Positions 32,247 to 63,300 of a stretch of DNA of 64,000 nt are shown piece by piece. This DNA comes from the human T2T-CHM13v2.0 reference genome, Homo sapiens. The notes beneath the pieces are model-generated. The model was not told where the DNA came from. It ran no database searches and worked only from the letters and a program-made list of their open reading frames with translations. The stretch is taken from assembly GCF_009914755.1 (NCBI RefSeq), contig NC_060947.1; one strand, 5' to 3'. Position numbers and translations under genes: made by a program. Each line of letters begins with the position of its first letter. The stretch's first letter is position 1.

Positions 32247-33899
32247 AAGATAATTGCAAAAGAATAAAATAAAATAAAAGCACCCAAGAGGAATGCATGG
32301 TAGAACAGGAAGAGATGAACATAAGGGGGATCATAAAAGCCATAGGGACTAAAAGGGAATCTATTGGGTGGTCAGAGCAAAGACACTGGATGTGGCAGGG
32401 AAAGGAACTCTGAGGTTCCTGAGGAAACTGAATATGCTCTCAAAAGAGCAACAGCTCAGGATTTCCTCCACAAGACAGGGCCCCAAATTCACATTACTAC
32501 CTTCCCCACCATGCAAGGATGTGCCCTTCTCCCATTATCCTGTCTCCCTGGGCCCGTGTCTAAAGAGATAAGAAAAATCATGAGGAGAAGATATAAGAGA
32601 GGAAAAAGGAGGTAGACTGGGTCTATGCCACATGTACATATGCATAGTACATTTGTAGAAATGCAAACCTCATTGAAGTGCCAGTGTGGAATAGGCAGAA
32701 ATCCTCAACATTCAGGGGTTTAGTTTTTAGATTACTATACAAGATGGGCTTCTAACTGCTAGGAAGCAACCACAGGATCTTCGATTACTTAAGAGGGACC
32801 AGATAACTATGGGCAGATAAGGAAAGAAAAAATGCCTACACCAGTTTTCATAGGTAAGCAGAAGAATAAGAAACTCACTTATTTCCATCTCATGAGGACA
32901 AGCCACAGAAATTCATTATAATGGATGAGAACACAGTACACATGGGGGAAAGTAAAGAAAGTCTGATACAGTGAACAAATTCCCATCTGAATATGCTCCA
33001 AAGGAATTGGGCAGTCAGGCAGTCATGGTGAGTACAACAGGAGAGCACTCCACCCTGGACTATTAGAGCAGCTAAGGCAGGAAATGATGTGTCATGAAGA
33101 CATTTCAGTTTGGTGAAAGCCTAATATTCTACTATGTTAACATGGCCTTCAAAAATATGAAGGAGAAAAGTTCTCTGAGGAAACCTACTAGTCCAAATAT
33201 CCCTACTTGAAAGGTGGAGAGAATTTCCCACTAGAAATGATTAAATATTGAAAATATCTTCAAAATAAGAAGGCTATGAACCAGAGAGGGCTGAAGGGAA
33301 ACACTTATGTGGCGGGGTCTGCATGCACCCCAGCATCTCATAGAATGATGGGATGAAAGGATATTGATTTCCTACACATTATGCACTCCCATAGTTCTCC
33401 CTGAATTTATCAGTTTGCTCTCCTTTTCTCTCTCGTCCCCATTTTTCCTTTTTCTCTACTTTTCCCCATGTCTACTGTGTTCTCATTCATTACACTGAAT
33501 GATAATATACAAAGAATGCAGTGGTTATCAGGATGAGGACCATACCTCAATCATTCAGGTAGAATCTACTAGAGGTAGCAGAGCAGGCAAAATCCTTTAA
33601 GAGCTGGTATTTGGCTTGTTAAAAATATGTAATGTGCACAAGGAAATGAGCCCATAATACCTACTATTAAGGGTGTAGCTAGTGATGAGTCTGTGAGTCA
33701 ACCACATCCCTAAAGTCTGCATTGAACATGATATTGAAAGTTACATGTGCCTCATGTAAGAGCTACGGCAGAAACTCCAAAGGGTAAAATAATAAATGCT
33801 CAGTAGAACCATATTCTAAAGTAAGGTATAGGCTATCTTGCTAACAATAAACCAAAAATGGTTCTGCTGGCATTGTCCCATGGCCCAGCTCAAAAATAT

Positions 33900-36800
33900 A
33901 AGATAGTTCAGCGAAGAATTTTTAGTGAGAGTTGTCAATGTGGTAGATATGTTCTCCTGTTCTTCACCATTATGAGTCTGGGCCATACCCCCCTCACTCC
34001 CAAAAGACATAATTAAACTATTTAAACGGGAGGTACACTTCTGGGGTATCATCACACTTTTTTAATTTTTAATTTTTGTGAGTACATAGTAGGTGTATAT
34101 ATTTATGGAGTACATGAGATACTTTGACACGGGCATGCAATGCATAATCACATCATGGAAAATGGGGTATTCATGCTCTCAAGCATTCATTGTTTGTGTT
34201 ACAAACAATCCAATTACACTATTTTAGTTATTTTTAAATGTAAAATTAAATTATTGTTCACTATAGACACCTGTCATGCTATCAAATAGTAGGTCTTATT
34301 TATTCTTTGTAACTATTTTTTGTATCAATTAACCAACCCTATTCCCCCTCCTACTACCCTTCCCAGCCTCTAGTAGCCATCCATCTACTCTCTATCTCCA
34401 TGAGTTCAATTGTTTTTATTTTTTTAGATCCCACAAATAAGTGAGAACCTGTGAAGTTTGTCTTTCTGTGCCTGACTTTTTTCACTTAACATAATGACCT
34501 CCAGTTCCATCCATGTTGTTGCAAATGACAACATCTCATTCTTTTTACAGCTGAATAGTACTCCATTATGTATATGTACCACATTTTCTTTATCCATTCA
34601 TCTGTTGATGGACACTTAGGTTGTTTCCAAATCTTGGCTATTATGAATAGTGCTGCAACAAACATGGGAGTGCAGATATCTCTTTGATATACTGATTTCC
34701 TTTCTTTGGGGTAAATACTTTGCAGTGGGATTGCTGGATGATGTGATAGCTCTGTTTGAGGAATCTCCAAACTGTTGTCCATAGTGTTTTTACTAATTTA
34801 CATTCCCACCAAGAGCAAATGAGGGTTCTCTTTTCACCACATTCTCTCCAGCATTTCTTATTGCCTGTCTTTTGGATAAAAGTCATTTTAACAAGGTGAG
34901 ATGATATTTCATTGTAGTTTTGATGTGCATTTCTCTGGTGATCAATGATGTTGAACACCTTTTCATATGCCTGTTTGCCATGGTATGTTTGAGAAATTTC
35001 TATTCAAATCTCTTACAGAATTGCCACATTTAAACCCAAACTGACTTTCTAAACCATGTATTCCATTGGTTCTAAACCATGTATTCCATGAATTCCACTG
35101 GAGCTGGGCATTGGTCATCTGGTTCTCTTTTTCAGTTTCTTCTTTAAGTATCCAGGCCATCCTTCAATGACTCCTGCTACTGAAATTTTATGGACAGCAT
35201 AAACAGTTCAGCAAACATCACAGGTAGCTGAAAATGCTGGGTATAGCTTCATATAAACACAGTAATGTTCAGTCAGACTGGATGCAGTCAAGGAATCCAA
35301 ACATGAAACAAAGTCTAAGAGTCCTGGCAGGAAATTTCCACGTCTTCTGTGAGAATAAGTTTGGCAGTATCATACTCAGAAAAGGTATACAGCCATAACC
35401 AGGGGTACACTTAAAAGGAACCTGGGGTATCATCAAGTAATTCCGGCTATGGGATCTGGGGATCCCACCATACTTGACTGTGCAGTTAACAAGCTGCACA
35501 CATTTCCAGGCTCCTTGGCGTTGTGTATTCAAATTGCTAGGTCTTGTTTTGGGTCCATATCCCAAATTGTGGATGGCACTGGTCCTAAACTGGGCAGACA
35601 TGTCTGATGAGCTTGTTGATTCCACTAATTTTCCCCCAAAGGGTCTTTATCCATGGCCATTCACATAGTGCAAGAACAGAAAGTGTGTGTCTTTGGCATT
35701 CTGCTGATAATGCTTATCCCAAAAGAGTCTAAGAATTAATCATCTAGTTTTTGGCCACCAGCCACCAGTCCACACTGCCAGGACATTGGCTGCTGCCCAT
35801 GAGTCAGTAAAAAATGTAAAAAGGAGCATTTTCAGGCTTGTTTTCCATGGCAAACACCACAAGCCAGAACTCCACTCATTGAGCAGAATTGCCTTTCCAT
35901 GTACAATTATTGTAAATTCCTTTTTGGGGTTACACAGCAGCACTGACCACATAACCCACTGGCATTTAAATTAGTTGATAAGTCTATGAATCCGGCTCAG
36001 GCATCTGTAAGAAACATGGCATACTGAAGCCATCAAGATCAAGAAGAAGTCCCAGTCCATCTAATGCAGCCATACATGGAGTGACTGGACACATTTTCTG
36101 CAGGTCTAAGACACCATTCATGCCCAGTTTGCTTGCCACCTTGGTATACCGCTTACACTTAACAAGGATGCTCATTGGGCAAGACCTAATTTATGAGATT
36201 TTCCTTTGACCCTTCATTGAAAGGGATACCAGGAGGTCACAACTGCTACCCTTGGTTTGTTACTCTACTGATGTCCACCAGCACCAGAAACAAGCCAATA
36301 TTAGTCCCTGAAATGGGATCCAGGCAGTGGTGGTGTCAGGGAAGCAGCATAAGCAAAAACTATGCTGAGGAAACAGTGGTACTCAGGCACTACTTCTTGA
36401 AAGGGCTATCCTGTGCCCTAGGATACAGGACTGTTTGAAACGTCTAAATGAATAAACAAACATACACGACGGTATGTTTAAGAGTGCAGTGAGTGAAGAT
36501 GCTTTGAAGCGGACACATCTCGAAAAGTTTGTATTGAACAGGGTGTTGCAAGCAACACAACCTCTCAAGGCCATTTGAGGATTTGTTCCCCATGGCAAGC
36601 ACCACAGCCCAGAATAACACTCACTAAGCAGAATGAGTGCTTCATGTGGTCCCTCTCTAGACACACTGTAAACACATTTTTGGAGCTGCACAGCTGCATT
36701 GGCCCACATACCCCCAATGGCCTTTAACATAATTGATAAGTCAATGAAACAGACCTAAGCATACACAAAAAAAACTTGAGGTACTGAAGCCAACAAGTAG

Positions 36801-38050
36801 CCCAAGTAAACATCCCAAACCCTACATCTAAGGCAGCCATAGCTGAAGAAAGACTGGATACATTTTCTTTAGTTCTGAGACACCAATAATGCCCAGTTTA
36901 TTCTTTCCTTACTATATCACGTCCATTTAAACAAGGACGCTCATAGGCAAGAATGAATTCATGGGATTTTCATTTGACTTTTCATTGAAAGGGATGCCAG
37001 GATGGAACAACCCCTACCCTTGGTTTGTTGCTCTATTGACATCCACCAACACCAGGATCAAGCCAATATTCATCCCTGAAATAAGGTATAGGCAGTAGCA
37101 AGTTCAGAGAAGCACCATGAACAAAACCACAAACCATTACTGGATGTTATATTAATGACATAGCTTAAGGGCGTTAACAGACTATAAGCCTGTTTCATAA
37201 ACATTTAAATTTAAACATGAAGGGCGAATGGGGGAAAAAAAACCTCAGTGGATGTCCTTTCTTTATTTGGATGATTGTTCCTTAATATTTGACAGGTTTA
37301 ATCTTTCAGAGCCTATTACTCAAAATTGTACCCTCTCTCTAAAGAGGACAATATGCTGTCCTTGGCACTTCCAATCCAAATAATGTCATCTGTGTAATGG
37401 TACCAGAATACTTCCAGTGAGGTTTCAGTCTTTTCTAAGTCTCAGCCTATCCACTGGTGATAAAGTGTGGGTCTCATTGCCTTGTCATTTTAACATATAA
37501 TGTAATCCAACCATTTAAGGAAAATGGACTCTAATCATATTAATTCATCAGGATTTGAAGGAAGCAATAGCATATCCACTACTGCATACAAGGCCCTTCA
37601 GGATGCACAATAGACTCCTAGTTTGTTATGACACCTGGAAAATTATTGAGTAAGAAGACAGCTGCCACATTAAACTAGTTATAATTCACACTGAGGTGTC
37701 AATTGACCCTGACTATTTTCACAGGCCAACTGTGGCTATTGTAGGATGGTGTAGCTTCTTTAAGCACATCTGCTTCTATCAGTCCCTCACCTCTTTGCTG
37801 ACACTGCAGTGCTGGCCTTGGGTAACCTAGTAAGATATAGGTTGTCCACTCATCCTACTAACACTGTTCTAATGGTTACATTTCCCTTGTGGGTATATCC
37901 ATTACAATCAATAGAATATTTCCATGCACTTAACAAAACTTCCCACAATACACTCAGCAGTATCAGTTATATTTATGTACCTGTATTGGTCCTCTATACT
38001 GGGGGCTGGCTAGCAAGTGAACTGCTCCCCTACTATCCCACAGAGGTAAG
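33900..38050 (-). pseudogene. Class III (ERV-L-like) pro-pol copy 1, with L1MA insertion and internal duplication
   Basis: minus-strand YNSHSWPVK, *HLSVNY, WYHYTDDII (~37380-37405), FTDSWAAANVLAVWTGGW (RNase H), FGFLDCIQSD (integrase). Confidence 0.85.
34057..35012 (-). mobile_element. L1MA (MA2-like) 3' fragment inserted in copy 1
   Basis: antisense 3' UTR; [23 protein letters not shown]. Confidence 0.92.
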
Positions 38051-38574
38051 GTTAATGTTCTTCATGTGGACACATAGACCCTGAGAAAGGAAATGTTTCA
38101 AGCTTTTTCTTTACTCTAAAAGGGGAAGGGCAAAGTTTAATTCTACCTTGCTTCAAGCAAATGACAAAGACCTCCAAAAAGCTTGTTTTAAGTCTCCTGC
38201 AGTTTGTAAACACAAGGATTAGTATCTGGTTCACACAATGAACTCAGAAATCTGGCACTGAAGCTGCGCCTTTCAGAAGGTACAATAAAATACCTGGTTT
38301 TAGAGTGAGCTGCATTTCTACCACATGCAGGTTACTGTGTTTTCCAAAGACATTATGTGCTTGCTACCATGATGAGTGGTCTGAGATTGTATTAAAATTA
38401 AACCATTCAAGGAGTCCCTGGCATGAAAAGAGGGAGCCTCAAAAGGAAGATCACAAAATTCTAGGGCATAGGTTACATTTAGCAGCCAGTGAAAGAAAAG
38501 GCACATTCCTGAAATCATGTATTGAATGAGATGTCCAACACACACAATATCAAATAAGTAATTTGGCAGAGGCT

Positions 38575-38902
38575 ATCTTTTGGAGAGAGGGTCTTTACGA
38601 AATAACCAAATTAAAATGAAGTCATTATCATGGTCCTAATCCAATATGACTGGTATAAGAAGAGGAAATTTGGACACAGATACATCTGCAGGGAGAATGT
38701 CACATGAAGACAAAGGTGGCCATCTACGAGCAAAGAAGAAAGTCCTGGAAAAGACCCTTTCCTCACATACCTCAGAAGAGACAATCCATGCAAACACCTT
38801 GATTTCTCACTCTGAGCCTCCAAAACTGTAAGACAACAAATTTCAGTTGCTTAACCACCAAGTCTGTGGTACTTACCTATGGCAATCCTAGTGAACAATT
38901 AC
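38575..38902 (+). mobile_element. MLT1B-like LTR inserted in one spacer motif
   Basis: cctaatccaatatgactggt..gaggaaatttggacacaga..gcctccaaaactgtaagacaa..ggcaatcctagtgaacaattaca. Confidence 0.8.
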
Positions 38903-40106
38903 AGGATCCAAAGGCAAAGACAAAAAAAAAAGTCAAATATTTCCATATTCTAAAGTGAGGTGCTAAGCCAGCTTGAAAAGTAATGGACCCAAACGGGATC
39001 TGCTGCCATTAGCACATCACCCACTGTTGGGTGAAGGGTGGAGAAGTACACAATGAAGATGACCCTCCAAGTACAGCAAGAAGGCTCCTAAAAAGACATA
39101 CCTGAAATTAGTCACATACATGGGAGGATCTGCATGTACCCTGACAACTCAGAAAAGGATGAGATGAAGGGATACTGGGTTACATGCACAGTATAACCCA
39201 TTGGTATTCCTGAATTTCTCCCAGTCACACTACTTTTATCTCTTCTTTTCCCTTTGCCTTCTACTTTCCCTCTTTTTTCCCAACCCTTCCAAGATCCCAT
39301 TCATCATGCTGAGAGATAGCTACCTACAATGCAGTGATTCTCTAACTGAAGATAGGTACCCAATAATTCAAAGAGACATTTCTATGGGTAGCTGGACAAG
39401 GTAATCCTAATGGAATGCAATTCAACATACTCATCATCCATATGTATGGTTTCCTAAATTAGATGTATCCAAAATTAACATAGAGCAGATCTGGAATGCT
39501 CTCCCATCCTTTCACAATCCATTTGTCCTATTTCAACCATCAGGATGTGATCTCTTTTTCCCAAAAAGCACTGTTACATTACCAGGCTCCAGAAAAAGAA
39601 GGCTAAAAATCCAAGGAGTAGATTTGTCAAAATCATATGGCACCCTGACCTCCAAGTCTACACAGCAGCTTGGAATGCGGTCAACATGGACATGGGGCCT
39701 CCACAGCTTCCACCAGCACCTCAGGGAACTTTGGGCTTTTGCTTCATACCTTGTCTGCAGCTCTGATGTTGCAATCCAAACGGAAGAAAGAGTACATATG
39801 TAGGGAGCTCATTTTTGCTAAAATGAAGGGCTATGCACACTGGATATAGCAATTGAATCAGCACCTGAAGTTGGAAAAAGGCAACAGACAAAACCTGCCA
39901 AACTTTTTAAGGGTCCAATGACAATAGAAAAGAGGCCTCCAGAGAATACCTACTAAATGTTAATTCTCCCGATTTAAGTAGCAGGATCTGCAGGCACTCC
40001 ACCAATTAGAATGATGGTATGATGGAACACAGGCTTCCCTCACTTTTTAAATAAGTAAACTCAATAAATTAATCCACCCAATTACCTAATAAGAATGTAG
40101 AGAGTA

Positions 40107-40445
<339 letters not shown>

Positions 40446-40679
40446 TCAGACACATCCCTGAAAGCCTTCCTTAAACAGGATACTGAAAGCAATGTATCTT
40501 AGAATATAAGAGTTTGGCCAGAGGGTACAAAAGACAAAATAATACATTCCCAGTACCCCAAATTTTAAACCATGGTTCTCAGCTATCTTCACAAAACCTT
40601 GACCAAAAATGGTTAAGCAGACATTAGCCCATCACCCACCTCTGGGATATAAAACATTTGGGTAGAAGAAGGAAGAGGG

Positions 40680-43600
40680 AGATTTTGGAGGGTGTGGACA
40701 ATGAGATATGCATTTCTATCCCATCCTGACTCTGGGCATCCTCAACCCCTCCTCTGCCTCATAATTAAACATTCTATTTAAATGGGAAGTACTGGCTGGG
40801 GAAATGCCACATTTAGAGCCCAAATTTGTCTTCTTAGCCTATGCTCCACTGGGACCTTAGTCTGGTTCGTACTCCTATTTTATTCAGTCTCTTCTCTAAG
40901 AATCCAGGCAATTTCTCAATAGTCCCTGATGTTGGTAAAAGATGTGGCACATGGTTGCATCCACCAGAAGTCCCATGAAGCCTCTCACTACTGGGTAACT
41001 TTTCCTCTGAAAGTGCCACCATTGTCTCATTGAATGTGGTTGCTGAATACAAATATAAGACACAGTCCAAATAAGAGTTCTGGTATGTTGCTTCCCCTTG
41101 CTATGGAAATGAGGATGTCAGTGCCATTTTTTATAAAGGTACCTACTGCATCCTTGGCCAGCAGTATCCTTGAAAGAAGGTTAGGGTACCAAGTCTGGTA
41201 TTTCTGCCTATCTGAAAAGGAGATTCCCCCTCCACTGGGTTGTATAGCCAGCATCTTAGGCGCATTCTCCAGGTTTCCTTGGCCTCATGGGATGGAATCA
41301 GTAGGTGTTGTTTTGGTGCCAGATCCTGAATTGAAGTTGGATTTTCATGCTTTGTTGCATACTTTATCCAGATTGTTTGGTACTAACCTGGCCAAAACAT
41401 GTCTGATCAGCTTGTTGATTCCATTGAATTTCATTCTCAAAAGCTCCTTATCCATGCACATCACATGGTGAATGAGTAGGAGTTGTGTGTCTTATGATAT
41501 TGGTTGATAATATTTTCTAAGCCTGAGTCTTGATCAGGCTTCCTGCATCCAAGCAACAGTCCACATTTTCACCAAATGGACACATGCTTGGGAATTAATC
41601 GAAAGGTAAGAAGGTGCATTTTGGGAAGCGATTTCCAGGGCAAGCACCACAGCCTGTAACTCCAACTACTGAGTAGAATGTCCCTTTTCACACGTAGATG
41701 CAAGCAGTTTTCTTGGGGGTTGTACAGCTTCTACACCTCACAAATCCTTCGGTCTTAAACTTAGCTGATAAGTCCATAAATCACATCCAGGCATCCTGGG
41801 GACTCTGAGTGTACCAAAGCCACCAAGAAGGCCAAGATGCTGGGCACAGTTCCTGTACCTGAGACAGCCACATCTAGAAAGCAACTGGATGCTTTTTCTT
41901 ATACCTCTGAGAAACCATTAACGCATGGTTTATGCATTCCTTTGATATACCACTTTCACTTATAAATGGATATTCCTTGGGTAATATCTACTTTGTTGGT
42001 GTTCACATATGGCACTCTTCTGTGATAGAAAACTCAAGCCATATTACACCTGATCTTGCTTCATTACTTGCCCAATGTACAATAACACCCACTAATAAAT
42101 CTCTCAAATGGGGCACATAAGGTGGTGGTTTCAGTCATACATTAAGAACAAAACCCAAAAGGTTCTACTTTCTAATGGCCACATCTTTTTGCTGCAGGCT
42201 CCAGTCTGTATCAATATCATTCACTGACAACTTTCTCAAAAATACTGCACAGAGAATGATCTGAGTAGAAAGGTGGACTTACACTGCTGCCCAGAGAGTT
42301 TCTAAAATAGGTTGATGGTCAAATTACATGTACTTAAAGATAAGTTGTGCAATGGTCTGAGCAAGATCCCAAAGTGAGGTATAAAGTAAAACAATACTGA
42401 AAAAGTTTATTATAAGTGGTGCAAAATATGATTTCCTGGAGGCTTTTAGACTATCAGTTTTTCTTGAACAAATTCATGGATTGTTTTTGGACATCAACCA
42501 ACATGGTTTCCAAAAACTATACTTCAGTGGCTGGCCCCCAATTCTTATAGAGTTAATCTTCAAGTTCTGGTTACTCAGATATCAATCTACCTACCTAAGA
42601 CAGACAGTATGTATTCCTTAGTCTACCTAATTTGAATAATGTCATCCATGTAATGTTACCAAGACAGCTTGGCTGCTCTTTCAATCTTCTGTATTTCTGG
42701 GCCTATGTAATGTTGAAAAAAACAAGGGAGGTGTTAGGTCATCTTGAGGCAGCACATTGAACATGTGTTGTAATCTGAGCCCCATGAAGTCAAATAGGCT
42801 CCAATCCCACGGATGCAGTGGGATTGAAAGAAAGCATTATCATGTCCACCACCAAGAACAAGACCCCATGGTCTGTGCAATGGATCCCATGATCATTAAC
42901 CCTTGAAATGCAGGTACAAGGACTACTCTGCATTCAGCTTGCTGTATGACACAGTGAGGCATCAAATACTCATTGTATTTTATCACCAACTATACTGGGC
43001 TAATACAGGGTAGTATACTTTCCTTAAGCACCTCTCTCTCCATTAGTTCCTTAATCAGTGTATGGACCTTCTTTCATCCTCTGCCCTCAACCTGGTATCT
43101 TACATGGCTTGACTGATATATCACAGCTTGTACCGTGGAAGCCTAGTGGGATCTTGGTTGTCAACTCGTCCCACTACCATATCCTAATTGTGGCATTTCC
43201 CCATTGGGAACATCCCTTACCATCACAAGAAGAATTACTGACTCTCAGACTGAAGGATGTTTACTCTCAGACTAAATGAGTGTTTAAGAGAATCCTTTCT
43301 GGCCAATACACTCTGCAGTCTCGCCTACAACACTTTGGATGTGTATTGGCCAGAAAGGACTCACCTCAAAACTCATTTTAAATACATTCTTCAGCCTGAG
43401 AGTCAGTGTAAATCTTCATAAGAACATCAGGGGTCACTACACAGCACAGCGATTTGTTCCCCAGTGTCCAAAATTGCAGAAAAGATTGTTCAACCTGGGA
43501 ACAGTCAATTCCCCCATACACTCAAATCAGTACATAAAGCCTCCATTTGCTATTATAACTGAAAGGTCCTTGACATCTATCCTAGACTCTTTTTTACTTC

Positions 43601-52145: not shown

Positions 52146-52675
52146 TTTAAATATCTGACTGAAAAAACTTACATACAATTCTTCCATCTGCTGGGCAGAA
52201 GGTTGGCAGTGGCATACTCAGATAAGAAATCAACTGTAGTCCATACCCAGCCCAGCAACCTTGAATAGAGGGAATGGGATAGATTGAACACCTCTGCATT
52301 TGGAAGGTGGAGATCCCCACTCTACTCGACCATGTAGCTGATGGTCTTGACACATTTCCAGGCTTCCTTGGCCTCATGTGCTGGAAACACTAGGTCTTGT
52401 GCTTGGGCCAGGTCCTGAATTATAGATGAATCACAATGACTTGTTGCAGAGTCTATCCAGGTTGCTACGGTGCTGAGTTGGGCAGGACATGCCTTATCAG
52501 CTTATTGATTCCTAGAATTTTAATCTGAAAGGGTCCTAATCCATACATAGTCACATGGGCCATGAACAGGTATGCATCTTCTGAAATCGACTAATAATAT
52601 CTACCACCTCGGAGGCTGAGACTGGATAAACTAGTCATCACACCACCAGACCCTCCAGGAGTCCATCTAAATGTT

Positions 52676-53130: not shown

Positions 53131-53516
53131 GGAGTCCATCTAAATGTTAAAAGATGTATTTAAGGGATATTTTCAAGGTAAAATGCACAGCCCATACCTC
53201 CATCCCAATCATTAAGCAGAACTCCCTTTTCCATGCATAGGTACAAGCAGTTTTCTTTGGTGTTGTATACCTTCCACAGCTACTATAACTAGTCTGTCTT
53301 TAGCTCAGCAGATGTATCCATGTACTAAACCCAGGTATCCTGAGGAACCTGGGTGTCCCAAACCAGCAGAAGACAGAGTGCTGTCATGGTCCCTGCATGT
53401 CAGTCAACTGCATGTGGAGAGTGACTGGACATTTTTTCCAGCACCTCTAAGACACCATTAATGCCCAGTTTACTTCTTCAAGTTACATATCACTTCCACT
53501 TAAAAATGGATATTAT

Positions 53517-53801
53517 GGCTGGGAATGGTGGCTCACATCTATAATCTCAACACTTTGAGAGGCTGAGGCAGGAGAATTGCTTGAGCCCAGGAGTTGGAGG
53601 CTAACCTGGGCAACATGGTGAGACCCTATCTCTACAAAAAAATTTAAAAATTAGCTGGGCATGGTGGTGCATGTCTGTAGTCCCAACTACTCAGGAGGCT
53701 GAGGTGAAAGGATTGCTTGAGCCTGGGAGGTCAAGGCTGCAGTGAGCCCTGATCATGCCACTGCACTTCAACCTGGGACACAGAGCAAGACCCTGTCTCA
53801 A
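53517..53801 (+). mobile_element. AluJ
   Basis: TSD aaaaatggatatta; J-type diagnostic positions. Confidence 0.93.
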
Positions 53802-56800
53802 AAAAATGGATATTACTTGGGCAATACCTACATTATCTGAGTTCTCATTTGAGACCTGTCCCATGATAGGGAAGTTAGGCCATTACAACCCTTGCTCTTG
53901 CTTGTGACTTTTTCTATGTCCACCAGCACCTGATAACAGGCAGCAATCGTCTATCAAATGGCATACCTTGAGTGGTGATGTCAGGCAAAGGTCATGAAAA
54001 AAGAGTGCCACTGCCTTGTGGACTACAGCTTTGCCAGTCATTATATTCTGAATAACTGTCGATTACTGACACATTGTGTCAAAATGGTGGGCACTGATGA
54101 CTGGCCCAAGTGGAAAGGTGGTCTGTGCAGCTTGTTGCACAGTTTCTAAGGCATGTTGTTGGTCAAAGTGGTGCCTTTCCAATAATCTTACGTAATGGGA
54201 TGAACGGGGTCCTCTTGAGATAAGAAATTCATGTGATACTGGTCAAATATATCATATGCTATGCCACACTTGGTTTTCAGAAGGTTTAAGGCCATCAGTT
54301 TTTCTTGAACAGGCTCTGGGATTGTTATCTGGGCAGCAGCCTACATGATTCACCAGAACTATATCTGGGTGGCAGGCCACTGATTCTTGTCAGAATTAAA
54401 CTTTCGGTGCTGGTTATTCAAATTTCAGCCGTATATCTAAGACAGAAAATATGCTGTCTTTACTGCTTCCAATCAGAATACAGTCATATTTACTGGTACC
54501 AGGACTCTGGTGAGAACTCAGTCTTTTGCAGGTCTTGACCAATCCACTTGTGAGAAATCGTGTAAAGGGTTAAGTGTCTATGTGGCAGAATAGAGCTTAT
54601 TTTGCATGCTAAGCCCCCATAAAGGCTCTGATCCCCTGATTATAGTGGGATATGAAGAAAACATTAATATATCCAGCATTACATACCAGGCCCTTCAATC
54701 TGTACAATGGAGTCTGTGACCACTATGATATCTAAAACAGCAGGGGTAAGGAGGACAGGCTGCCACAAAAAGCTTGCAGTTATCCACAGTAAGGGGTCAA
54801 GCAGCACTGGTTTTTCTCACTGATCACAGGAGGCTATTGTAGTATGCTACTGTCTCTTTAAGCAACTCTGCATCTATAAGTTCCTTGATAAGTGTAGGGA
54901 TCTCTTATCACTTGGTCCCTAACATAGAATCCTACACTGCTTTATTGGTCATTATTGGCTTAGTGGAGATGTCTGTGGGGCTTAAGGTTTTTCATTTGTA
55001 TCACTACCACTGTTCTAATCATAGCATTTCCCCATCGGAAACATCCCTTACAATCAAGAGAAGAATTACACACACTTAACATAGTTATTCCCCATAATAC
55101 TCAGATATGTCATTTACAACAACTTGCATGTGTATTGGACCATAGAGGCAGAGCCATAAACTCCTATCAGTTCATAGTCCAATCTGAGAGATATTTCAAC
55201 ATTCAGAGTACATTTTTGACCATGCGTGTGGATACTTCCACTCAGCAGAGTGACTTCTGCCTCACGTCCATAATGACCGAAAAAGTTTAAAACATGTCTA
55301 CTGTCAAGTCCCCCCAATATCCTTTGACCAGTGGGTAAAGCCTTCTGGTCCAGTTAGAGAAGGTTCAGGGTCTTAAACTCTACCTTAGAACTTCTTTTAA
55401 GAGCAAGAAACGGTGGTGTTGAATGTGTTAGATAAACAGTCAGAAGAAAACAGATCTCAGAAAGATTTTCTAGGTGTTCGAGTTCCTCCTCTAAACATTA
55501 CCCAGGTGCTTATGGGCTGAGTGGCTGGAATACCGGAATGGTCAATAGGCCATTGGGTAATTTTAACTCCTTCCCCTCCAGCACAACTGATAGAGCTCCC
55601 ACATTTGCTTGTCAAGGAGGAATCCTATAGTTCATTAAAGTTTTGACCAAACTTATCCTTAATGTCCCTCCACTTCTGCTCATTGGAAAAACAGGCCTCA
55701 ATACATTTCTGTAAATGACCACCACTGATCAGCAGGGAGGAATTCATTTATGGTCAGGGCTAGTAGCCAGAGGAAAGGAGTTTTAGTTTCTCAGTGACAC
55801 AGATGGGTGCCCAATAACTACGTAATGCTTTTATTAGATTTATGTGGTCCTACCCAATTTATGTCTAGCTCAAACCACCTTTGCAACTCGGCAGGGAACT
55901 CAGGAAAATGGTGAAAGATCACTTGGCCCCATGTCACCAAAGATTTGGGCAGCATGGTCTTACAATGTGCCAGAGCTGTGAACACTAACATGTTTTCTAT
56001 TCTGTAGCTCTCTTCTGGAGGTAAATGGACAGGAAAAAGCCTTATATCTCAAAAGACCACAGAGGGGAAGAGAAACTGCCCCATAACAACCTTTCATAAG
56101 AGATAAAGAGGCAAGTGGGAGACAGCATTTGGAGCAATTCTTCACATGCCTCCCATTGTCCTGCATTTTAGAGGGATCACAAAGTGTTCTGTCGCACTCA
56201 GAAGAGCTTTGCTGAAGCTTATCCCTCTGTGGCTTATATGGATATGTTCAAGGTCACCAGGGCAAAAATGCAGAGCAATGCCCTACATGTGGTTAACACC
56301 AGGACATTCCTCCTCCTCAGACACTCATAAGTCGCATAATCATCCACGGAAGAAGCTGACACTGTCCATTACCTACCACCTGTTTCTCTGTACTCAGTTG
56401 CACGACTGGAGACCCACGATGGATTATGAAATGAGTGATAGGATGGCTGACACAAGAGCAACAGATTCCAAGAGCTGCACTCATGATCCTGACTTATTGG
56501 AACACAGATACCAATTGATTCATATAGGAAAAGAATCTGGGGCAGGAGTTGCTCCTTTTACAAGAGAAGAAGTGGGCTTCCTTGCGAGTTAACTACAATT
56601 AATTCTGCCTCCTGTCGAAGAAACACTTGTGCTCTCCATGTAGATAATGTGGACCCTGAGAAAGGTATTATGGTGGGCTTTTTTCTACCCTGAAGAGGAA
56701 GGGACAAATTTTACTTCCCCTTTTACTTCAAGCAAATGACAAGGAACTTAAGAAAGCTTGCTTTATATCCCCCTGGAACTCATAAAAACACAGGGGTAAT

Positions 56801-57209
56801 GTCTAACTCTCACAAGTGAAGTCAAAGTCTTGGGCTGGATGGGCCCCTGCCAGAAAGTACAATAAGAAGGTTAGCTTGGGAGTGAACTACAAATGTACCA
56901 CATACAGAATAAAGCCTGTGCTTTCCAATATCCACATATAGGCACTGTGAGGGTGAGTGGCCTGAGACTGTATTAAATGAAAGCACCACAAAGAGCCCTT
57001 AGAAAGAAAGGAGGGGGCACAGCAGAGAGATGGCTCACAAAATTCAAGAAGGTAGAACATTTCTAGTGGGCAGTCAAGGGAAGGCCTGATCCTGCAAGCC
57101 TGTAGTGAACAGGATATTGAATACCTTCTCAGGGAACAGACTTGTCAGAGGCTACAAACACCAGAACAATAAATGACAAATACTCCCATATTCTAAAGTA
57201 AGACGCTAA

Positions 57210-57320
57210 GGATTCGCTAATTACCCAGATTTAATCATTACATGATGTATATATGTATCAAAACATCACATTGTGCCCCATAAATGTATACAATTGTTGT
57301 GTCAATTAAAACTAAAATAC
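57210..57320 (+). mobile_element. L1MA 3' terminus fragment
   Basis: gctaattacccagatttaatcattaca..atcaaaacatcacattgtgccccataaat. Confidence 0.75.
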
Positions 57321-57386
57321 TTTTTAAGTGGAATCAAATGGATATTATTAGACCACCATCCACCACAGAGATACGAAATAATTGAT

Positions 57387-57690
57387 GCTGGGCACAGTGG
57401 CTCATGCTTATAATCCTAACACTTTGGGAAGCCAAGGCAGAAGGATTGCTTGAGCCCAGGAGCTCACGACCAGCCTGGGCAACATAGCAAGACCCTATCT
57501 CTAAAAAAAATTTTTTTTTAATTAGCTGGGTGTGGTGGCACACACCTGTAGCCCTACCTACTCAGGAGGCTGAGGCAGGAGAATCACTTGAGCCCGAGAA
57601 TTTGAGGTTTCAGTGAGCTATAATCATGCCATTGCACCCCAGCCTGGGCAACAGAGCAAGACTCTGTCTCAAAAAAATAAATAAATAAAA
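57387..57690 (+). mobile_element. AluJ
   Basis: dimer with (aaat)n tail. Confidence 0.93.
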
Positions 57691-58911
57691 GAATTGACAT
57701 GGAAGAAGCAAAAATAATTTAGGGAGAAAGTTGTCAGTGTATTCAGCATTTTATCCCCAGGGATAGGGACTGTTTCTTCCTCACTACAAATCACTCACTG
57801 ACTACAAATCAAGAGCTTCAGAAAACTTGACTGATGCCCTGGTAGGCTGGTTGAGAAACATAGAACTAATGTCTGACTCACGTCAGTAAAATTAACATGC
57901 TGGGGCTTGAAGTACCCCTAAAGAAGGGAGAGTAACAGTGTATCTTTGATTGAAAAGCAAATTCAACCTTTACAGAAGCAAGATCTTTGATTTCCAGGGT
58001 TGATATATGGACCTTGGGAAAAAGAGTGGCCTGAGAGTAACTTAAAAGATATGTCAATCAAAAAAACCTGCTGGAGAAGCAAATGACCCCAGAAGAGGTG
58101 AAGGCCATAAAAGGCCTCAAAACTGAGTGAGAACCTAGTGATCAGTCAGATAAAAGGCACTCGATGTGACAGGAACATGAAGTCTGAGGTCCCTATAGAA
58201 AAATGAAAATGTCCCCACGAGAGGCTCTGCTCAGTATTTCCTCCATATCTCAAAGCCCAATGCCCACAAAACAACTTAACCAGCTATGCAAGAATGTGCT
58301 CTTCTGGAGTCTTCCTCTTTCTGAGTTTGGCATCAATGAAAATGAACAGTGGCACAGTTGGAGAGAACATGGAAAAAAGGCAAAACCTGAGTGCCTATTT
58401 CCACCCAACACCCATGCACAAATATCACATGCAGAATTCCAATCTTTAAGCAGGCCTCAGGAGGGAGTGGAAGATAATTCCCAATATTCAAAAATTAGGA
58501 CTTTGATTATACACTGTAATCAGCTTCATAAAGATTGCAAATGGCTACAGGACATTTGGCTTCATAAGAGGAAACAAAGTCTATGGGACCTACCTGGACT
58601 TTCATCACAGACATGGGAACAACAGATCCAAGCCAGTTTGCACAGTGAAAAAGAAAATGAATAGTTTCTCTTGGAACTCATCAAAAGGAATTTGAATTAA
58701 GAAACAGTGGTGAATTTCTAATGTGAATATGCTACAAATTTATTTGACAAACTGGAATTCATAGTGAGTGCTGCAGGAGAGCAACCATCATATGCACTAC
58801 CTGATATCACAAGGCAGGAAATAGCGGCACATTTTGACTTCTCAGCTATCCACAAATATGTTTTACTAATAACGTAAGGGGCCTTCAAAATGGCAAAAGA
58901 AAAGACCTGAA

Positions 58912-59210
58912 AGCCGGGCGTGGTGGCTCACACCTGTAATCCCAGCACTTTGGGAGGCCGAGGTGGGCAGATCACTTGAGGTCAGGAGTTCAAGATCAGC
59001 CTGGCCAACATGGTAAAACCCTATCTCCACTAAAAATACAAAAACCAGCCAGGCGTGGTGGCACGTGCCTGTAGTCCCAGCTACTCGGGAGGCTGAGGCA
59101 CAAGAATCGCTTGAACCTGGGGGCAGAGGTGGCAGTGAGCCATGATCATGCCACTGCACTCTTGCCTGGATGACAGAGCGAGACTCCGTCTCAGAAAAAA
59201 AAAAAAAAAA
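58912..59210 (+). mobile_element. AluS
   Basis: dimer plus poly(A). Confidence 0.95.
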
Positions 59211-59904
59211 GACAAGACAAGGCCTGGAACATGAACATGTCACATTACAGTAGGAAGACAGAGTAAAAATGCAGAATCTGGTGTTATCCAAAATGAAGGT
59301 TTACCCATTGATTGGACTAGGTGCCTGAAGCTGCAGTGAAATCAATAACCAACAAATACCAAGTTTTTTAAGGAACCTTGAAATATACAAAACAGGCTCT
59401 ATGAGAAAACCCACAAGACTAAATACTCAGGCTTGAAAGTACAGGGACAATTGGCTTTCCCTCACTTTATCCTACCATGACCTCCTGGTAGTCTCCTACA
59501 TCTCCTTTCATCCTTTCTCTTCCAGATTCTCTTATTACTCAACCTTTCTGCTATTCTCAATCAATCTTCTGATGAATGTAAGAAAACAATGCAGTGGTTC
59601 TCTGGCTCCAATCAGGACTCCTATCCTACAGGGAAATTTCTTGGAGAAACTTGAGCACAGAGAGTCTTAATGGAATCAATTTCCCCATTCTCATCTTTTA
59701 ATTGTATGTTTTCCTAAAGAACATCAATGTATGAAGGATTCTGGAACTAAGGCAGGCCTTCCTCCATCCCCTTTCACAAAGTCTGTCAATTTACAAAAAC
59801 AAGGAGAAAATCTCACTAACTCCCATTTTGAAAGGGTGCACTGCCCAGAATGTAGACATCTGGGAGCTCCAAATGATCTGGACTCCAGGTATCAAAAGAA
59901 CTCA

Positions 59905-60075
59905 CATCAGATGGCAGAGTAGGAGACCCTAGGCATCAATCTGTCCACCAGAACAACTACTGAGCTGGCAAAATCTGTCTGGAGCATTAAATTTATAGCT
60001 CTGCAAACTAGTTGAACACTTACAGCATCAGGGGAGCATGTGATGAAGAAAAAGGCTGAAAAATGTCAGTGAAAT
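59905..60075 (+). mobile_element. Possible old L1M 5'-end fragment
   Basis: agatggcagagtaggag..gctggcaaaatctgtctg. Confidence 0.4.
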
Positions 60076-61519
60076 TTTAAGCCCCCAGAAGCTAGAGGGG
60101 CTAAATCACTGAGGAAGAGAAGTTAGACTTAGAGCTGCCCCTGTCAGAGGCACAATAAGAGGACTGGTTTAGGAGAGAACTACACTTTCACTATATGCAG
60201 GAAAAAGGAATATATTCTCCGTGGGAGATACGTGGAACCTAAGAAAAAGAGTTGCTGGTTATTTTCTCCTCACTCATGAGGGAGGGACAAAGATCAGTTG
60301 ATTCTTGCTTCAAGCAAATAACAGAGGTTCAAAAAGCTTCTCTTATGTCCCCTGAAACACATTAACCAGTGTCTCATTCTTCCAAGTGATGACAAGAATC
60401 TGGGGATGGAGCAACCCTAAAAAAAGGCACAACAAGGATGACTTGGAAAATGAACTGCAGCTCCAACATGATGGTGGGGCCATAGTAGAAATATGCTGCC
60501 ACCACAACACATGTAAACTTGAGCTCCTGCCAAGCCTAGAACTCATCACTGTGTGCCTGAAGCTCTGGCATATTACAATACAACCAAAATATTGAGTAGA
60601 AATGTGAGGGGGAAAAGTGTTTGCAAAAGAAAGGGTTACACACTGGCTGGCCCAGAATGAACAGATGGCTGAATCCAGTAGACATAAAGACTTTTCAAGA
60701 GGTCTTTAAATATGTATGTGCCTGGAGCCCCAGCATAAATTGTCAAAAAAAAATATGAGAACTGACCTCCCCACACATATGGTTGCTCAGGACCAGGTTC
60801 ACTTGGAGATGAGGCCCCTAAAACTGCTATCACCAACACAAAGTGGCAATCTCACTTCCTACTTTAGTGTGTAGAACTCCAATATGTAGTAATCCAAATG
60901 CCAGAAAGAATACAAATGCCGAGAACTAGGTTTTGCTAAATTAAATGCTACACACACTGATCACCAGAATCAAATTCATACCTGAAGCTGGAGTAAACAA
61001 ATACCAAGTTTTTTTAAGGGGACTTTGAAAAACAAAGAAGGCTCTCAGAAAACATCCACTAGCCGAGATATCTATGCTTGAAAGTTTGGCAGATAATTTT
61101 GCACTGGATATAATCCAACATAAAAATTCTGGGATCAACAGAGGCACTAAGTACAGAAAGAGCTGAAGGAAGTCAAATATATGGCAGGATTTGCATGCAT
61201 GCTAACAACACAAAGAATGAGGGGTGATGCTGACTCACCCTCACATTTGATGTAAGTAAAGTGAATAAGCTAATGGACCTGAGTATCTAAGATAAGGGTG
61301 AAAATACATATGTACAACTATTATGTATCCATAAAAATTACAAATTAAAAAACACCCTTGCCAGAGGCTCCAAAGAACAGAACAATAAATGTCAAGTACT
61401 CTGTATTCTAAAACAAGGTTCTGAGACATCTCACCAAAAACTTGACCTAAACTGATTCTACTAGATTAGCCCATCACATACCTCTGTAATATAAAAAGTT
61501 GTGTTGAAAGAGAAGGAAA

Positions 61520-63300
61520 AGAATTTTGAAAGGAGTTGTCTCTGTGGTAGACATTTTCTTCTCCATCCTGACTCTGGGCCTCCTCTATCCTCTCCTCAAC
61601 TTCTTGCTTTGTTATTCTCTCAATGTCACTAACTAGAAGTCATTTCTCAATGGTGGTATATCAGGTGGCAGTTTTAGGCAAGGACCACATACGAATCCCA
61701 AAGTGGCCACAACATTTTACCACAGTTCCTGTGAGCATTAATATTCATTGCTAAAACTTTCTTTCAAAACGTGACTGACTGGCCTGAGTGAAACAATGGT
61801 CTGTACAGCTTGACAGATAATATCAAAGGCAGGTTGTTGGTCAACTCAAATGACTTTTGAGTAATCTTATATAATGAGCTGAGCAGGATCCCCACATGAG
61901 GTATAAAGTCAACTCAATACGCTCAAGCTTATCATGTGCTCTCTCAAATTTGTTTTTCTGGTGTTTTTAAGGCCATCAGTTTTTCTTGAGCAGACTCAAG
62001 GAGTATACTCTGGGCATCAATTCACATGTTTCATCAGAACTTTATCTGGGTTCTGGCTACTGGGTCTTGTCAGGGTTATTAATCTTCCAGTGCTGGTTAC
62101 TCAGATATTGGACCATCTATCTACCACAGACAATATGCTGTCCTTAGTGCTTCCAATCAGAATGATGCCAGTCATATAATGGGACCAGGACACCTCTGGT
62201 GAGAATTCAGTCTTTCCTAGGACTCGGCCTATCCACCAGTGAGAAATCATGGGAAAGTTTAGGTCACACTGGGGCAGCAAGGTGAATACATGTTGTAATC
62301 AGATCCCCAAGAAGCTAATTAGACTTTCAACACACAATGGGATCTGAAAAAAACATTGGTATGTCCACTATTGCAGACCAAGCCATTCATTCTGCACATG
62401 ACCATGAACATTACAATATCTGGAAGTAAAGGAACAAGGAGGACTACTGCTACATTGAGCTCATGGCAAAAAGACAGTGAGGTTTCAGTTACTATATTGG
62501 TTTTTTGATTAGTTAAGGGTCCTTCTTTCACATGTCCCACCTCCCACCCCAACTCAGTATCTGATATGGTTTGGCTGTGTCCCCACCCAAATCTCAACTT
62601 GAATTGTAGCTCCCAGAATTCCCACATGTTGTGGGAGGGACCCAGGTGAAGTAATTGAATCATGGGGGCTGGTCTTTCCCGTGCTATTCTCATGATAGTG
62701 GATAAGTCTCACGAGATCTGATGGGTTTATCAAGGGTTTCCGCTTTTGCTGCTTCTTCATTTTTCTCTTGCTGCCGCCATATAAGAGGTGCCTTTTGCCT
62801 CCCGCCATGATTCTGAGGCCTCCTCAGCCATGTGGAACTGTAAGTCCAATTAAAACTTTTTTTTCTTTCCAGTCTCAGGTGTGTCTTTATCAGCAGTGGG
62901 AAAATGGACTAATACAGTATCTTAAACTGCTTTAACAATGCCTCTAGGCTGGGAATCCTGGTGGGTTCCCAGTTGTATTAATGCCCCACTACCACTATTC
63001 TATTGTGGCATTTCCCCATTGAGAACATCTCTTACAAACAAGGACATCCCTTACAAACAAGAAAATATTTAACACAACTCTTCCCACAGCACATTCAGCA
63101 GTATCAATTACAACAACTTGCCTGTCTATTTGACCAGGGGAGCCCACCCATAAACTCTCATTAGTCCATAGTCCAATCTGAGAGGCATGTACACATCCAA
63201 CGTAAATTTCATTTTTGCTTACAAAAAAGTATTAGAACTGGCAAATATGCCCTAAATCTTGCTGGGGATCACAAGTCTCCCTTGCTGGAGGGCATCAAAG
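61520..63300 (-). pseudogene. ERV-L-like pro-pol copy 5 (most of RNase H/IN deleted)
   Basis: *NLTVFCHELN, QHVFTLLPQ, WSHYMTGIILIG (~62152-62190), protease-region anchor at ~63008. Confidence 0.8.
62562..62916 (+). mobile_element. THE1A solo LTR
   Basis: tgatatggtttggc...ggactaataca; 5-bp TSD gtatc. Confidence 0.95.

What the first reader, a model, noticed from the sequence alone, without database searches (positions are those of the whole stretch)
32300..63300. Hidden ~31-kb head-to-tail array of five ancient LTR-less ERV-L-like pro-pol copies
Seen in sequence: five collinear minus-strand units (~33.9-38.0, 40.7-44.5, 45.2-49.4, 51.3-56.6, 61.5-63.3 kb). They share protease-region, RT (YNSP, LTVDY, LPQ, YxDD), RNase H (TDSW..N.LA.W) and integrase (FG...IQSD, GxIE) remnants, are separated by shared spacer modules, and show no recognisable LTRs. 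Established: YTDSWAVANGLAGW is the HERV-L/MuERV-L RNase H signature, and proviruses normally insert singly and decay to solo LTRs. Inference: this is segmental tandem amplification of one proviral region that has persisted despite deep divergence, possibly a co-opted locus. I cannot tell whether it has been described.
Basis: partly seen in the sequence, partly recalled or inferred. Interest (0 to 1): 0.9.

Follow-up and report, generated by a model that had tools for sequence, protein, structure and literature searches.

The report
Ancient tandem array of retroviral relics
About 86 kb of the human X chromosome just upstream of PRDX4 consists of eight or nine very old, decayed head-to-tail copies of a roughly 10-kb block carrying a retrovirus remnant, most likely multiplied by local DNA duplication and showing no sign of present function.

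Summary
The five minus-strand units are real, and they are the left part of a larger array. Direct repeats run from window 32,281 to about 54.7 kb beyond the window's end (chrX:23,158,281-23,244,722, about 86 kb). Of 225 self-matches, 224 are direct, and shuffled controls gave none. The repeating block is a composite of about 10 kb: an IN-RNaseH-RT-protease-like stretch plus about 3.5 kb of further modules. Those modules have copies nowhere else in the genome. The pol part has only about six dispersed relatives. In a tree, all local units fall on one side of a 100/100 branch, away from four dispersed copies. Local units are 61-73% identical (K80 about 0.48), which implies duplication about 100 Myr ago or earlier. 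This supports local DNA-level amplification and argues against independent insertions.

Retroviral identity is only partly shown. RT matches a genuine pol (E = 2e-7, reversed control 0.096). Pfam and PDB searches found nothing. No dUTPase is present, so the unit is ERV-L-related but not a demonstrated ERV-L. "LTR-less" is unresolved, because a locus-specific module flanks the internal part at both ends. I found no evidence of co-option. The array is a curiosity of a known kind.

The parts
32281..64000 (-). The part of the tandem array that lies inside the window. The array continues for about 54.7 kb beyond the window's end, to chrX:23,244,722.
   Evidence: Of 225 self-HSPs, 224 are direct. 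Direct repeats cover 79% of the 62,430 bases left after masking. No array module lies left of 32.2 kb.
32281..33596 (-). Left-end spacer modules: an R7 fragment (32332-33154), an S/R11 piece (33173-33352) and R9 (33267-33596).
   Evidence: 32332-33154 matches 58106-58890. 33173-33352 matches 61042-61224. 33267-33596 matches 39078-39408.
33692..39023 (-). Unit A. In plus-strand order: m3 (R6+R1) 33692-34059; L1 insert 34065-35016; IN 35087-35720; RNase H-like 35716-36172; internal duplicate 36574-37126; RT 37261-37787 (YTDD at 37385-37396); protease-like 37793-37992; R5-end/X 38056-38575; second R6 copy 38907-39023.
   Evidence: tblastn with L050 RT gave E=0.004 at 37337-37471. The internal duplicate is 72% identical (E=2e-88).
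39078..40089 (-). A-B spacer: R9 (39078-39481), S/R11 and R8-like pieces (39624-40089). The R7 and R10 modules are missing here.
40440..44942 (-). Unit B. m3 40440-40903; IN 40845-41530; RNase H-like 41598-41974; RT plus protease-like 41967-43410 (YMDD at 42641-42652); start of R5 to 43832; Alu 43885-44200; alternative 5' region 44201-44942, shared with unit E and with unit H outside the window.
   Evidence: tblastn with L050 RT gave E=0.04.
44951..49369 (-). Unit C. m3 44951-45220 and 45549-45679 (split by an Alu); IN 45614-46286; L1 insert 46288-46800; RNase H-like 46872-47324; RT 47636-48625; protease-like 48937-49369. The 5' part is cut off by a MaLR-like insertion.
51104..57202 (-). Unit D, used as the reference unit. 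R1/m3 51104-51530; IN 52167-52650; RNase H-like 53132-53514; RT plus protease-like 53807-55390; R5 55406-57153, whose end is X1 (56526-57076); R6 57089-57202.
   Evidence: R5 is 66% identical over 1830 bp to the unit at 82728-84508 outside the window.
57694..61300 (-). D-E spacer, specific to this locus: R7 57694-58911 (contains X2 57805-58148); S1/R8 59222-59450; R9 59440-59800; R10 59909-60475 (contains X3 60112-60459); S2/R11 60740-61300.
   Evidence: for the module map. Searches found copies of these modules only in chrX:23.19-23.245 Mb. No Pfam domain appeared in their ORFs on either strand.
61351..63885 (-). Unit E. m3 61351-61618 is joined directly to RT 61602-62505, so IN and RNase H are deleted. 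MaLR-like LTR insert 62561-62919; protease-like 62926-63220; alternative 5' region 63227-63885.
   Evidence: tblastn at 62119-62355 gave E=2e-7 with L050 RT and E=4e-4 with a HERV-K-type RT.

Best explanation
This is the decayed remnant of an ancient local DNA amplification.

Inferred sequence of events:
1. One provirus of a low-copy, ERV-L-related (class III-like) family sat in this intergenic region. Its protease-RT-RNaseH-integrase part survives.
2. That provirus, together with about 3.5 kb of neighbouring or rearranged sequence found only in this locus, was copied head to tail. The likely route is repeated unequal crossing-over or replication slippage.
3. The result was eight or nine units of about 10 kb spanning about 86 kb.
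4. This happened about 100 Myr ago or earlier. Since then the units have drifted neutrally to about 65% identity, lost different parts by deletion, and taken up Alu, L1 and MaLR insertions.
5. Two pieces were later copied elsewhere: a 92-94% identical patch at chrX:13.84 Mb, and probably the old fragment on chr2.

Shown here: the array, its extent, its composite unit, the locus-restricted modules, the grouping of local copies, and the RT homology.

Inferred: the duplication mechanism, the date, and the lack of function.
For: 1. Direct-repeat structure. Of 225 self-HSPs (E<=1e-10, >=100 bp), 224 are direct and cover 79% of the unmasked array. Five block-shuffled controls gave 0 HSPs.
2. Conserved module order. 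The order R5/X1-R6-R7(X2)-S1-R9-R10(X3)-S2-R6-R1-pol recurs, with small variations in the placing of R9, in the D-E, 74-78 kb, 84-87 kb and 100-103 kb intervals.
3. Spacer modules are confined to this locus.
   - R7: all 4 matches are local.
   - 59218-61350: 8 of 42 matches are local. Of the rest, 33 cover only the last 47 bases and 1 is a 60-bp match.
   - R5: 7 of 41 matches are local. The other 34 cover only a roughly 110-bp high-copy repeat at 57210-57334.
4. The pol family is rare, and most of it sits here. With unit B as query, 12 of 21 DNA matches lie in chrX:23.16-23.24 Mb, 1 is the 13.84-Mb copy, and 8 fall in five other places.
5. Tree of 14 copies. The chr20, chrX:54 Mb, chr3 and chr14 copies form a 100/100 clade. 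All local units lie on the other side. Terminal branches are 0.19-0.26 and internal branches are short.
6. Divergence. The 27 local pairs have mean identity 0.654 and mean K80 0.476.
7. No Alu is shared at matching positions between units. The insertions therefore came after the duplication.
Against: - The chr2 fragment nests among the local units. Forcing the local units into an exclusive clade costs 9.5 log-likelihood units (p-AU 0.047). The local copies are therefore not cleanly monophyletic. I read chr2 as a secondary copy but did not show it.
- The "locus-specific" modules could be viral parts (leader, gag, LTR) of this particular provirus that the short dispersed fragments simply lack.
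- The genome DNA search needs roughly 65-70% identity and scores only the best candidates.
- No other mammal could be examined, so the date rests on recalled substitution rates.
- The tree is star-like and gives no order of duplications.
Confidence: 0.72

Rival explanations
1. The whole roughly 10-kb unit is viral. On this view, a complete provirus (LTR-leader/gag-pro-pol-3' region-LTR) was multiplied by unequal recombination between its own LTRs, giving LTR-int-LTR-int. The so-called spacer modules would then be LTR and non-pol viral sequence.
For: - R6 (about 110 bp) followed by X (350-550 bp) lies at the 5' end of unit D (57202 down to 56526). The same pair lies just 3' of unit E's integrase end (61417-61351, then X3 60459-60112), and at both ends of unit A (33706-33887 and 38907-39023).
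- X1 versus X3 within a unit is 63% identical. That is slightly lower than X1 versus X1 between units (66-70%), as expected for an LTR pair older than the amplification.
Against: - About 2.5-3 kb (R7, S1, R9, the rest of R10) lies between the putative 3' LTR of one unit and the 5' LTR of the next. Units therefore do not share a single LTR.
- X occurs three times per unit and S twice.
- None of these modules appears in the five dispersed loci examined or elsewhere in the genome.
- In three dispersed copies the integrase end is instead followed by a different module, which occurs only once in the array.
- No gag, env or other domain was found in 120 spacer ORFs.
- A recalled primer-binding-site motif was not found.
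Confidence: 0.15
2. The units are independent integrations of one retroviral family into an insertion-prone spot, all by chance in the same orientation.
For: - Divergence between local units (K80 0.35-0.57) overlaps that between local and dispersed copies (0.44-0.69).
- The chr2 copy nests among the local units.
Against: - At least eight copies of a family with about six detectable copies elsewhere would have to land within 86 kb, all in one orientation.
- The copies share non-pol modules in the same order.
- Those modules are unique to the locus.
- The units lack the 3' module seen in dispersed copies.
Confidence: 0.03
3. The array has been kept by selection as a working element upstream of PRDX4, for example a chromatin-organising tandem repeat, a regulatory block or a small-RNA source. 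This would be in addition to its origin by duplication.
For: - A roughly 86-kb array has survived without collapsing, and it ends about 6 kb before PRDX4 (and the gene table supplied with the finding).
- Slightly higher identity (0.70-0.75) in one roughly 100-column stretch of the integrase-end module.
Against: - Unit identity is at the neutral level throughout: 0.52-0.75 in 60-column windows of the m3 alignment, against a 0.65 mean in pol.
- Units have lost different parts.
- No Rfam family was found in 30000-64000.
- One CTCF-type motif match against 0.55 expected by chance.
- No conserved open frame.
- RefSeq lists no functional element here (the supplied table).
Confidence: 0.05

Closest known systems
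MHC class I duplicons carrying HERV16 / ERV3-16A3_I
   Same: An old class III ERV internal sequence was multiplied together with its neighbouring DNA by unequal crossing-over, not by new integrations. [quoted passage not shown]
   Different: The MHC units carry working genes (HLA class I, MIC) and a named, abundant ERV family. By recall, those duplications date from mammalian and primate times. Here no gene is present, the ERV family is rare, the units are about 65% identical, and the locus is Xp22.11.
HERV-L / ERVL lineage (represented here by the copy at locus L050)
   Same: RT similarity: 32% identity over 81 residues, E=2e-7. Same order of RT, then connection, then RNase H. The RNase H motif of unit A matches 10 of 14 positions of YTDSWAVANGLAGW, which L050 carries exactly.
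   Different: No dUTPase follows integrase in the units or in their dispersed relatives. PMC5753468 (passages read) gives dUTPase as the mark of the ERVL lineage and its absence as the mark of ERVS. DNA similarity to L050-type copies was too low for the DNA search to find them.
Tandem proviruses that share a central LTR (LTR-int-LTR-int-LTR), as reported for HERV-K
   Same: Proviral internal regions arranged head to tail.
   Different: By recall, those arrays have two or three young, near-identical copies joined by exactly one LTR. Here there are at least eight old copies separated by 2.5-3.5 kb of other sequence. Of the literature I saw only a search listing of an HML-2 pangenome preprint that mentions tandem arrays.
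X-linked macrosatellites such as DXZ4 (recalled)
   Same: Kilobase-scale tandem units on the X chromosome.
   Different: By recall, macrosatellites are kept highly similar by concerted evolution and bind CTCF. Here units are 61-73% identical and the CTCF-type motif is not enriched.

Membership tests
Retroviral (ERV) pol remnant | Reverse transcriptase homology | tested here: met
   tblastn with the RT open frame of L050 (Pfam RVT_1, E=7e-28) gave: unit E 2e-7, unit G (outside the window) 1.5e-4, A 0.004, B 0.04. The best hit on the reversed-sequence control was 0.096. Pfam RVT_1 itself found nothing in 147 ORF pieces.
Retroviral (ERV) pol remnant | RNase H, integrase and protease domains in retroviral order | tested here: inconclusive
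   Only motif-level support and weak hits. RNase H gave E=0.085 over 19 residues in unit A. The connection region gave E=3e-4 in unit G. Integrase gave E=0.47 at an out-of-order position. Motifs are listed. Pfam found none and PDB searches found none.
Retroviral (ERV) provirus | Paired LTRs, primer-binding site and target-site duplication | tested here: inconclusive
   The R6+X modules sit at both ends of units D/E and A, but they are locus-specific and X occurs three times per unit. A recalled tRNA-Leu-type primer-binding motif gave one plus-strand match with 3 mismatches against 0.44 expected. Target-site duplications were not examined.
ERVL lineage of ERV3 (class III) | dUTPase domain (PMC5753468, passages read) | tested here: not met
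   No dUTPase at E<=1 in three read-through frames of the integrase-end region of five units (A, B, D, F, H). No tblastn hit better than E=0.02 in a tiny database, using one ERV-L-type, one unclassified and two HERV-K-type dUTPase pieces against unit ends and the dispersed copies' 3' module. Loss through decay cannot be excluded.
ERVL lineage of ERV3 (class III) | Closest pol relatives are ERV-L-type copies | tested here: inconclusive
   The RT piece of unit E finds 38 non-local places at 30-45% identity. I characterised one of the 38 (L050): RVT_1, RNase_H and rve, followed by dUTPase at E=0.045. L050 RT scores 45 bits against 33 bits for a HERV-K-type RT. No class I reference was tested.
Segmental tandem duplication | Units share non-mobile flanking sequence in the same order and orientation | tested here: met
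Segmental tandem duplication | Local copies are each other's closest relatives | tested here: inconclusive
   All local units lie on one side of a 100/100 branch, away from four dispersed copies. However, the chr2 fragment nests among them, and exclusive monophyly has p-AU 0.047.

The most novel reading that the evidence does not exclude
The array may be a structure shared across placental mammals and retained upstream of PRDX4 because the repeated block does something. It could organise chromatin on the X, or serve as a unit-periodic regulatory or small-RNA source. In that case its survival for about 100 Myr would not be mere neutral persistence.
Probability: 0.05. Interest if true: 0.7.

Novelty: new member of a known kind. 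Interest (0 to 1): 0.35.

Why it matters
- **Copy number without reinfection.** The array shows that an endogenous retrovirus can increase its copy number through host DNA duplication rather than reinfection. Most detectable copies of this rare family sit in one locus. That would bias family counts, age estimates and insertion-site statistics if each copy were treated as an integration.
- **A marker for Xp22.11.** The array gives a deep-time structural marker for the PTCHD1-PRDX4 interval that can be followed across mammals.
- **Limited wider interest.** The kind of event is already known from the MHC, and nothing here points to function.

Tried and rejected
**Domain and structure searches that found nothing useful**
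- Pfam on three 3,600-residue read-through frames of 32001-42800: no retroviral hit. A first attempt with nine frames was too large to print.
- Pfam on ORF pieces:
  - 147 pieces from the five units: none at E<=1.
  - 65 of the 91 listed pieces from units G and H and five dispersed copies: only RT_RNaseH at E=0.054, in the chr3 copy. I dropped 26 overlapping or Alu-like pieces before the call.
  - 120 of 125 spacer pieces on both strands: nothing meaningful.
- PDB sequence search with RNase H-region pieces of unit C and of the chr20 copy: 0 hits at E<=10.

**Search for a reference ERV-L copy**
- A genome search for dUTPase returned mostly gag-dUTPase-protease (HERV-K-type) loci. I scanned 34 of the 50 listed ORFs. 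One locus (L028) remained unclassified.
- A gag reference upstream of L050 was uninformative.

**Motif and feature tests**
- dUTPase in the units: none.
- Rfam: none.
- Recalled primer-binding-site motif: chance level.
- Recalled CTCF-type motif: chance level.
- Genome search with the 3' module of the dispersed copies was swamped by a neighbouring high-copy repeat. It gave one further copy, on chr1.
- Conservation scan of the integrase-end module: neutral level.

**Literature and earlier notes**
- Three literature searches and one preprint checked by term search turned up no description of this array.

Full report
**Observation**

A self-comparison of the window first showed many diverged direct matches (64-72% identical) between 33 and 63 kb, alongside Alu and L1 matches. 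I masked the young repeats identified there (nine Alu stretches, three L1 pieces, two MaLR-like LTRs). A more permissive BLAST of 32-64 kb against itself then gave 77 HSPs, of which 76 were direct. These define five units:

| Unit | Window coordinates |
|---|---|
| A | 33692-39023 |
| B | 40440-43832, plus 44201-44942 |
| C | 44951-49369 |
| D | 51104-57202 |
| E | 61351-63885 |

All carry the presumed pol on the minus strand.

**The array is larger than reported**

- A genome search with unit B found further same-strand copies outside the window.
- I fetched 60 kb to the right. Array modules continue, always in direct orientation, to about 118.7 kb in window-plus-flank coordinates.
- No array module lies left of 32.2 kb.
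- Over 32,201-119,000 (86.8 kb, of which 62,430 bases remain after masking), 224 of 225 self-HSPs (E<=1e-10, >=100 bp) are direct. They cover 79% of the unmasked bases. Five block-shuffled controls gave no HSP.
- The array therefore spans about chrX:23,158,281-23,244,722. It ends about 6 kb before PRDX4, according to the supplied gene table.

**Anatomy of the repeat unit**

I used unit D plus the following spacer (51051-61350) as a yardstick. The unit is a composite of about 10 kb. In plus-strand order:

| Module | Coordinates | Note |
|---|---|---|
| R1 (integrase-end module; the upper part of m3, whose lower end is a further R6 copy) | 51104-51530 | |
| Integrase-like | 52167-52650 | |
| RNase H-like | 53132-53514 | |
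| RT and protease-like | 53807-55390 | |
| R5 | 55406-57153 | its end is X1, 56526-57076 |
| R6 | 57089-57202 | |
| R7 | 57694-58911 | contains X2, a second copy of X |
| S1 | 59222-59450 | |
| R9 | 59440-59800 | |
| R10 | 59909-60475 | contains X3 |
| S2 | 60740-61300 | |
| next unit's R6 and R1 | from 61351 | |

- The same module order recurs, with small variations in the placing of R9, in the 74-78 kb, 84-87 kb and 100-103 kb intervals.
- Eight units carry pol sequence: A-E in the window, and F, G and H outside it. F has only the integrase end.
- Further units have lost pol and keep only R5, R7 and the S/R9 modules.
- Units differ by large deletions. E lacks integrase and RNase H. C lacks everything 5' of the protease-like part. 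The A-B spacer lacks R7 and R10.
- Unit A has an internal 0.5-kb duplication (72% identical).
- B, E and H share an alternative 5' region not seen in D and G.

**Is it retroviral?**

Pfam does not detect it:
- No hit at E<=0.1 in three long read-through frames.
- No retroviral family at E<=1 in 147 minus-strand ORF pieces of the five units.
- One RT_RNaseH hit at E=0.054 among 65 pieces from units G and H and the dispersed copies.
- PDB sequence searches with two RNase H-region pieces found nothing at E<=10.

I therefore looked for a genuine pol in the same genome:
- The 65-residue RT-like frame of unit E (62104-62298) matched 41 places at E<=0.01. Three of these belong to the array or its 13.84-Mb copy, and 38 lie elsewhere at 30-45% identity.
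- I fetched one of the 38, L050. It carries RVT_1 (E=7e-28), RNase_H (1e-6) and rve (9e-8) in order.
- Directly after integrase, L050 has a frame-split dUTPase remnant (E=0.045).

tblastn with L050's frames against the array:

| Target | L050 RT E-value |
|---|---|
| Unit E | 2e-7 |
| Unit G | 1.5e-4 |
| Unit A | 0.004 |
| Unit B | 0.04 |
| Reversed-sequence control (best hit by any query) | 0.096 |

- All hits were on the minus strand.
- A HERV-K-type RT matched unit E more weakly (E=4e-4, 33 bits against 45).
- RNase H, integrase and protease are supported only by weak hits and by motifs present in one to three of the five units each.

RT homology is shown. The other domains are plausible from their order and motifs, but they are not shown.

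**Is it ERV-L?**

- PMC5753468 (passages read) states that the ERVL lineage encodes a dUTPase and the ERVS lineage does not.
- I found no dUTPase signal in the integrase-end region of five units.
- I also found none by tblastn in the unit ends or in the 3' module of the dispersed relatives.
- At the DNA level the family is distinct and rare. Unit B found only 21 matches: 12 in this locus, 1 in the 13.84-Mb copy, and 8 in five other places. A sixth place, on chr14, came from a protein search.
- I therefore call the units ERV-L-related by their RT and RNase H motifs, but I do not file them as ERV-L.
- I could not name the Repbase or Dfam family, because no repeat library was available.

**Duplication or independent insertion?**

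Three lines of evidence favour duplication.

1. The non-pol modules are repeated in a fixed order with each unit.
2. Those modules exist only in this locus.
   - R7 matched only this locus (4 of 4 matches).
   - 59218-61350 had 8 local matches. The other 34 were confined to a 47-base terminal stretch or a single 60-bp match.
   - R5 had 7 local matches. The other 34 were confined to a roughly 110-bp high-copy repeat at 57210-57334.
   - The five dispersed loci I fetched contain only pol sequence, plus a different module after the integrase end in three of them. That module occurs once in the array.
3. The tree of 14 copies (2151 columns) separates local from dispersed copies.
   - The chr20, chrX:54 Mb, chr3 and chr14 copies form a 100/100 clade.
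   - All local units lie on the other side.
   - Supported pairs are A with its own internal duplicate (100/98), E with H (95/95), and B with the 13.84-Mb copy (100/100).
   - Rows left out: unit F (too short) and the 68-bp chr9 match.

Against a clean picture:
- The chr2 fragment nests among the local units. An exclusive local clade is borderline rejected (p-AU 0.047).
- I read chr2 as an old secondary copy, like the younger 13.84-Mb one, but this is inference.

**LTRs**

- R6 followed by X lies at the 5' end of unit D, and again just 3' of unit E's integrase end (there interrupted by S2). R6 lies at both ends of unit A.
- This could be an LTR pair. X1 and X3 are 63% identical, slightly less than X1 copies between units (66-70%), as expected if the pair predates the amplification.
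- However, X occurs three times per unit and S twice. Neither has dispersed copies. 2.5-3 kb of other sequence separates one unit's candidate 3' LTR from the next unit's 5' LTR.
- "LTR-less" is therefore open. I give the all-viral-unit reading 0.15.

**Age**

- The 27 local pairs are 61-73% identical, with mean K80 0.476. Terminal branches are 0.19-0.26.
- With recalled mammalian neutral rates of about 2e-9 per site per year, this puts the amplification at about 100 Myr or more, near or before the placental radiation. This is inference. No other mammal could be searched.
- Alu insertions differ between units, which fits the date.

**Function**

Nothing points to function:
- Frames are broken throughout.
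- Rfam found nothing in 30000-64000.
- A recalled CTCF-type motif was at chance level.
- Identity along the integrase-end module stays at 0.52-0.75.
- RefSeq lists no functional element here (the supplied table).

**Known or new?**

- The closest described case is the MHC class I region. There, HERV16/ERV3-16A3_I copies were multiplied with HLA and MIC genes by unequal crossing-over (PMC7848197, passages read).
- Three full-text searches and one preprint checked by term search did not turn up this Xp22.11 array. I did not examine any supplements.
- I rate it a new member of a known kind, of modest interest.

Noticed in passing
Window 40065-42721 and 33652-33800; copy at chrX:13,840,717-13,843,501 (loci L017/L018): A 2.8-kb chimeric patch lies inverted 9.3 Mb away. 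It is 92% identical to unit B, including B's Alu (window 40112-40420). It is followed directly by 150 bp that are 94% identical to unit A's integrase-end module. The patch sits inside an L1, between positions matching window 19440 and 19750. It looks like a primate-era templated insertion or conversion patch.
   Followed up: partly
chr2:33,718,625-33,720,158 (locus L019, 6625-8158): A 1.5-kb RT/RNase H fragment of the same family nests among the array units in the tree instead of grouping with the other dispersed copies. It may be an ancient secondary copy of an array unit.
   Followed up: partly
Window 49377-51050 (plus strand) and 62561-62919: By recall, a THE1/MST-type (MaLR) LTR plus internal part with a 185-residue open frame (49758-50315). 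It lies between units C and D. A second LTR of the same kind (80% identical) lies inside unit E. The two are at non-matching positions, so they are independent insertions.
   Followed up: partly
Window 35830-36358 and 36574-37126: Internal 0.5-kb tandem duplication of the RNase H-like part within unit A. At 72% identity it is younger than the array itself.
   Followed up: yes
Outside the window: locus L012, 6319-6445 (chrX:23,206,319-23,206,445): A 127-bp piece of the integrase-end module (76% identical to window 40803-40928) sits in the middle of unit G's RT. It lies exactly between the equivalents of unit B positions 42774 and 42778. It is an odd small patch within the array.
   Followed up: no
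Window 56107-56589 and 58188-58661 (plus strand): Two open frames of 161 and 158 residues on the strand opposite the pol remnant. Neither has a Pfam match, and neither stays open in the matching parts of other units.
   Followed up: partly
Window 57210-57334: A roughly 110-bp stretch next to an Alu matches more than 30 places across the genome at 81-86% identity. It is a high-copy short repeat and not part of the array unit.
   Followed up: no
Outside the window: chrX:23,229,462-23,234,760 (loci L014/L015): A 5.3-kb L1, 94% identical to the L1 at window 18.2-23.7 kb, splits unit H between its integrase-end module and the rest of integrase.
   Followed up: no
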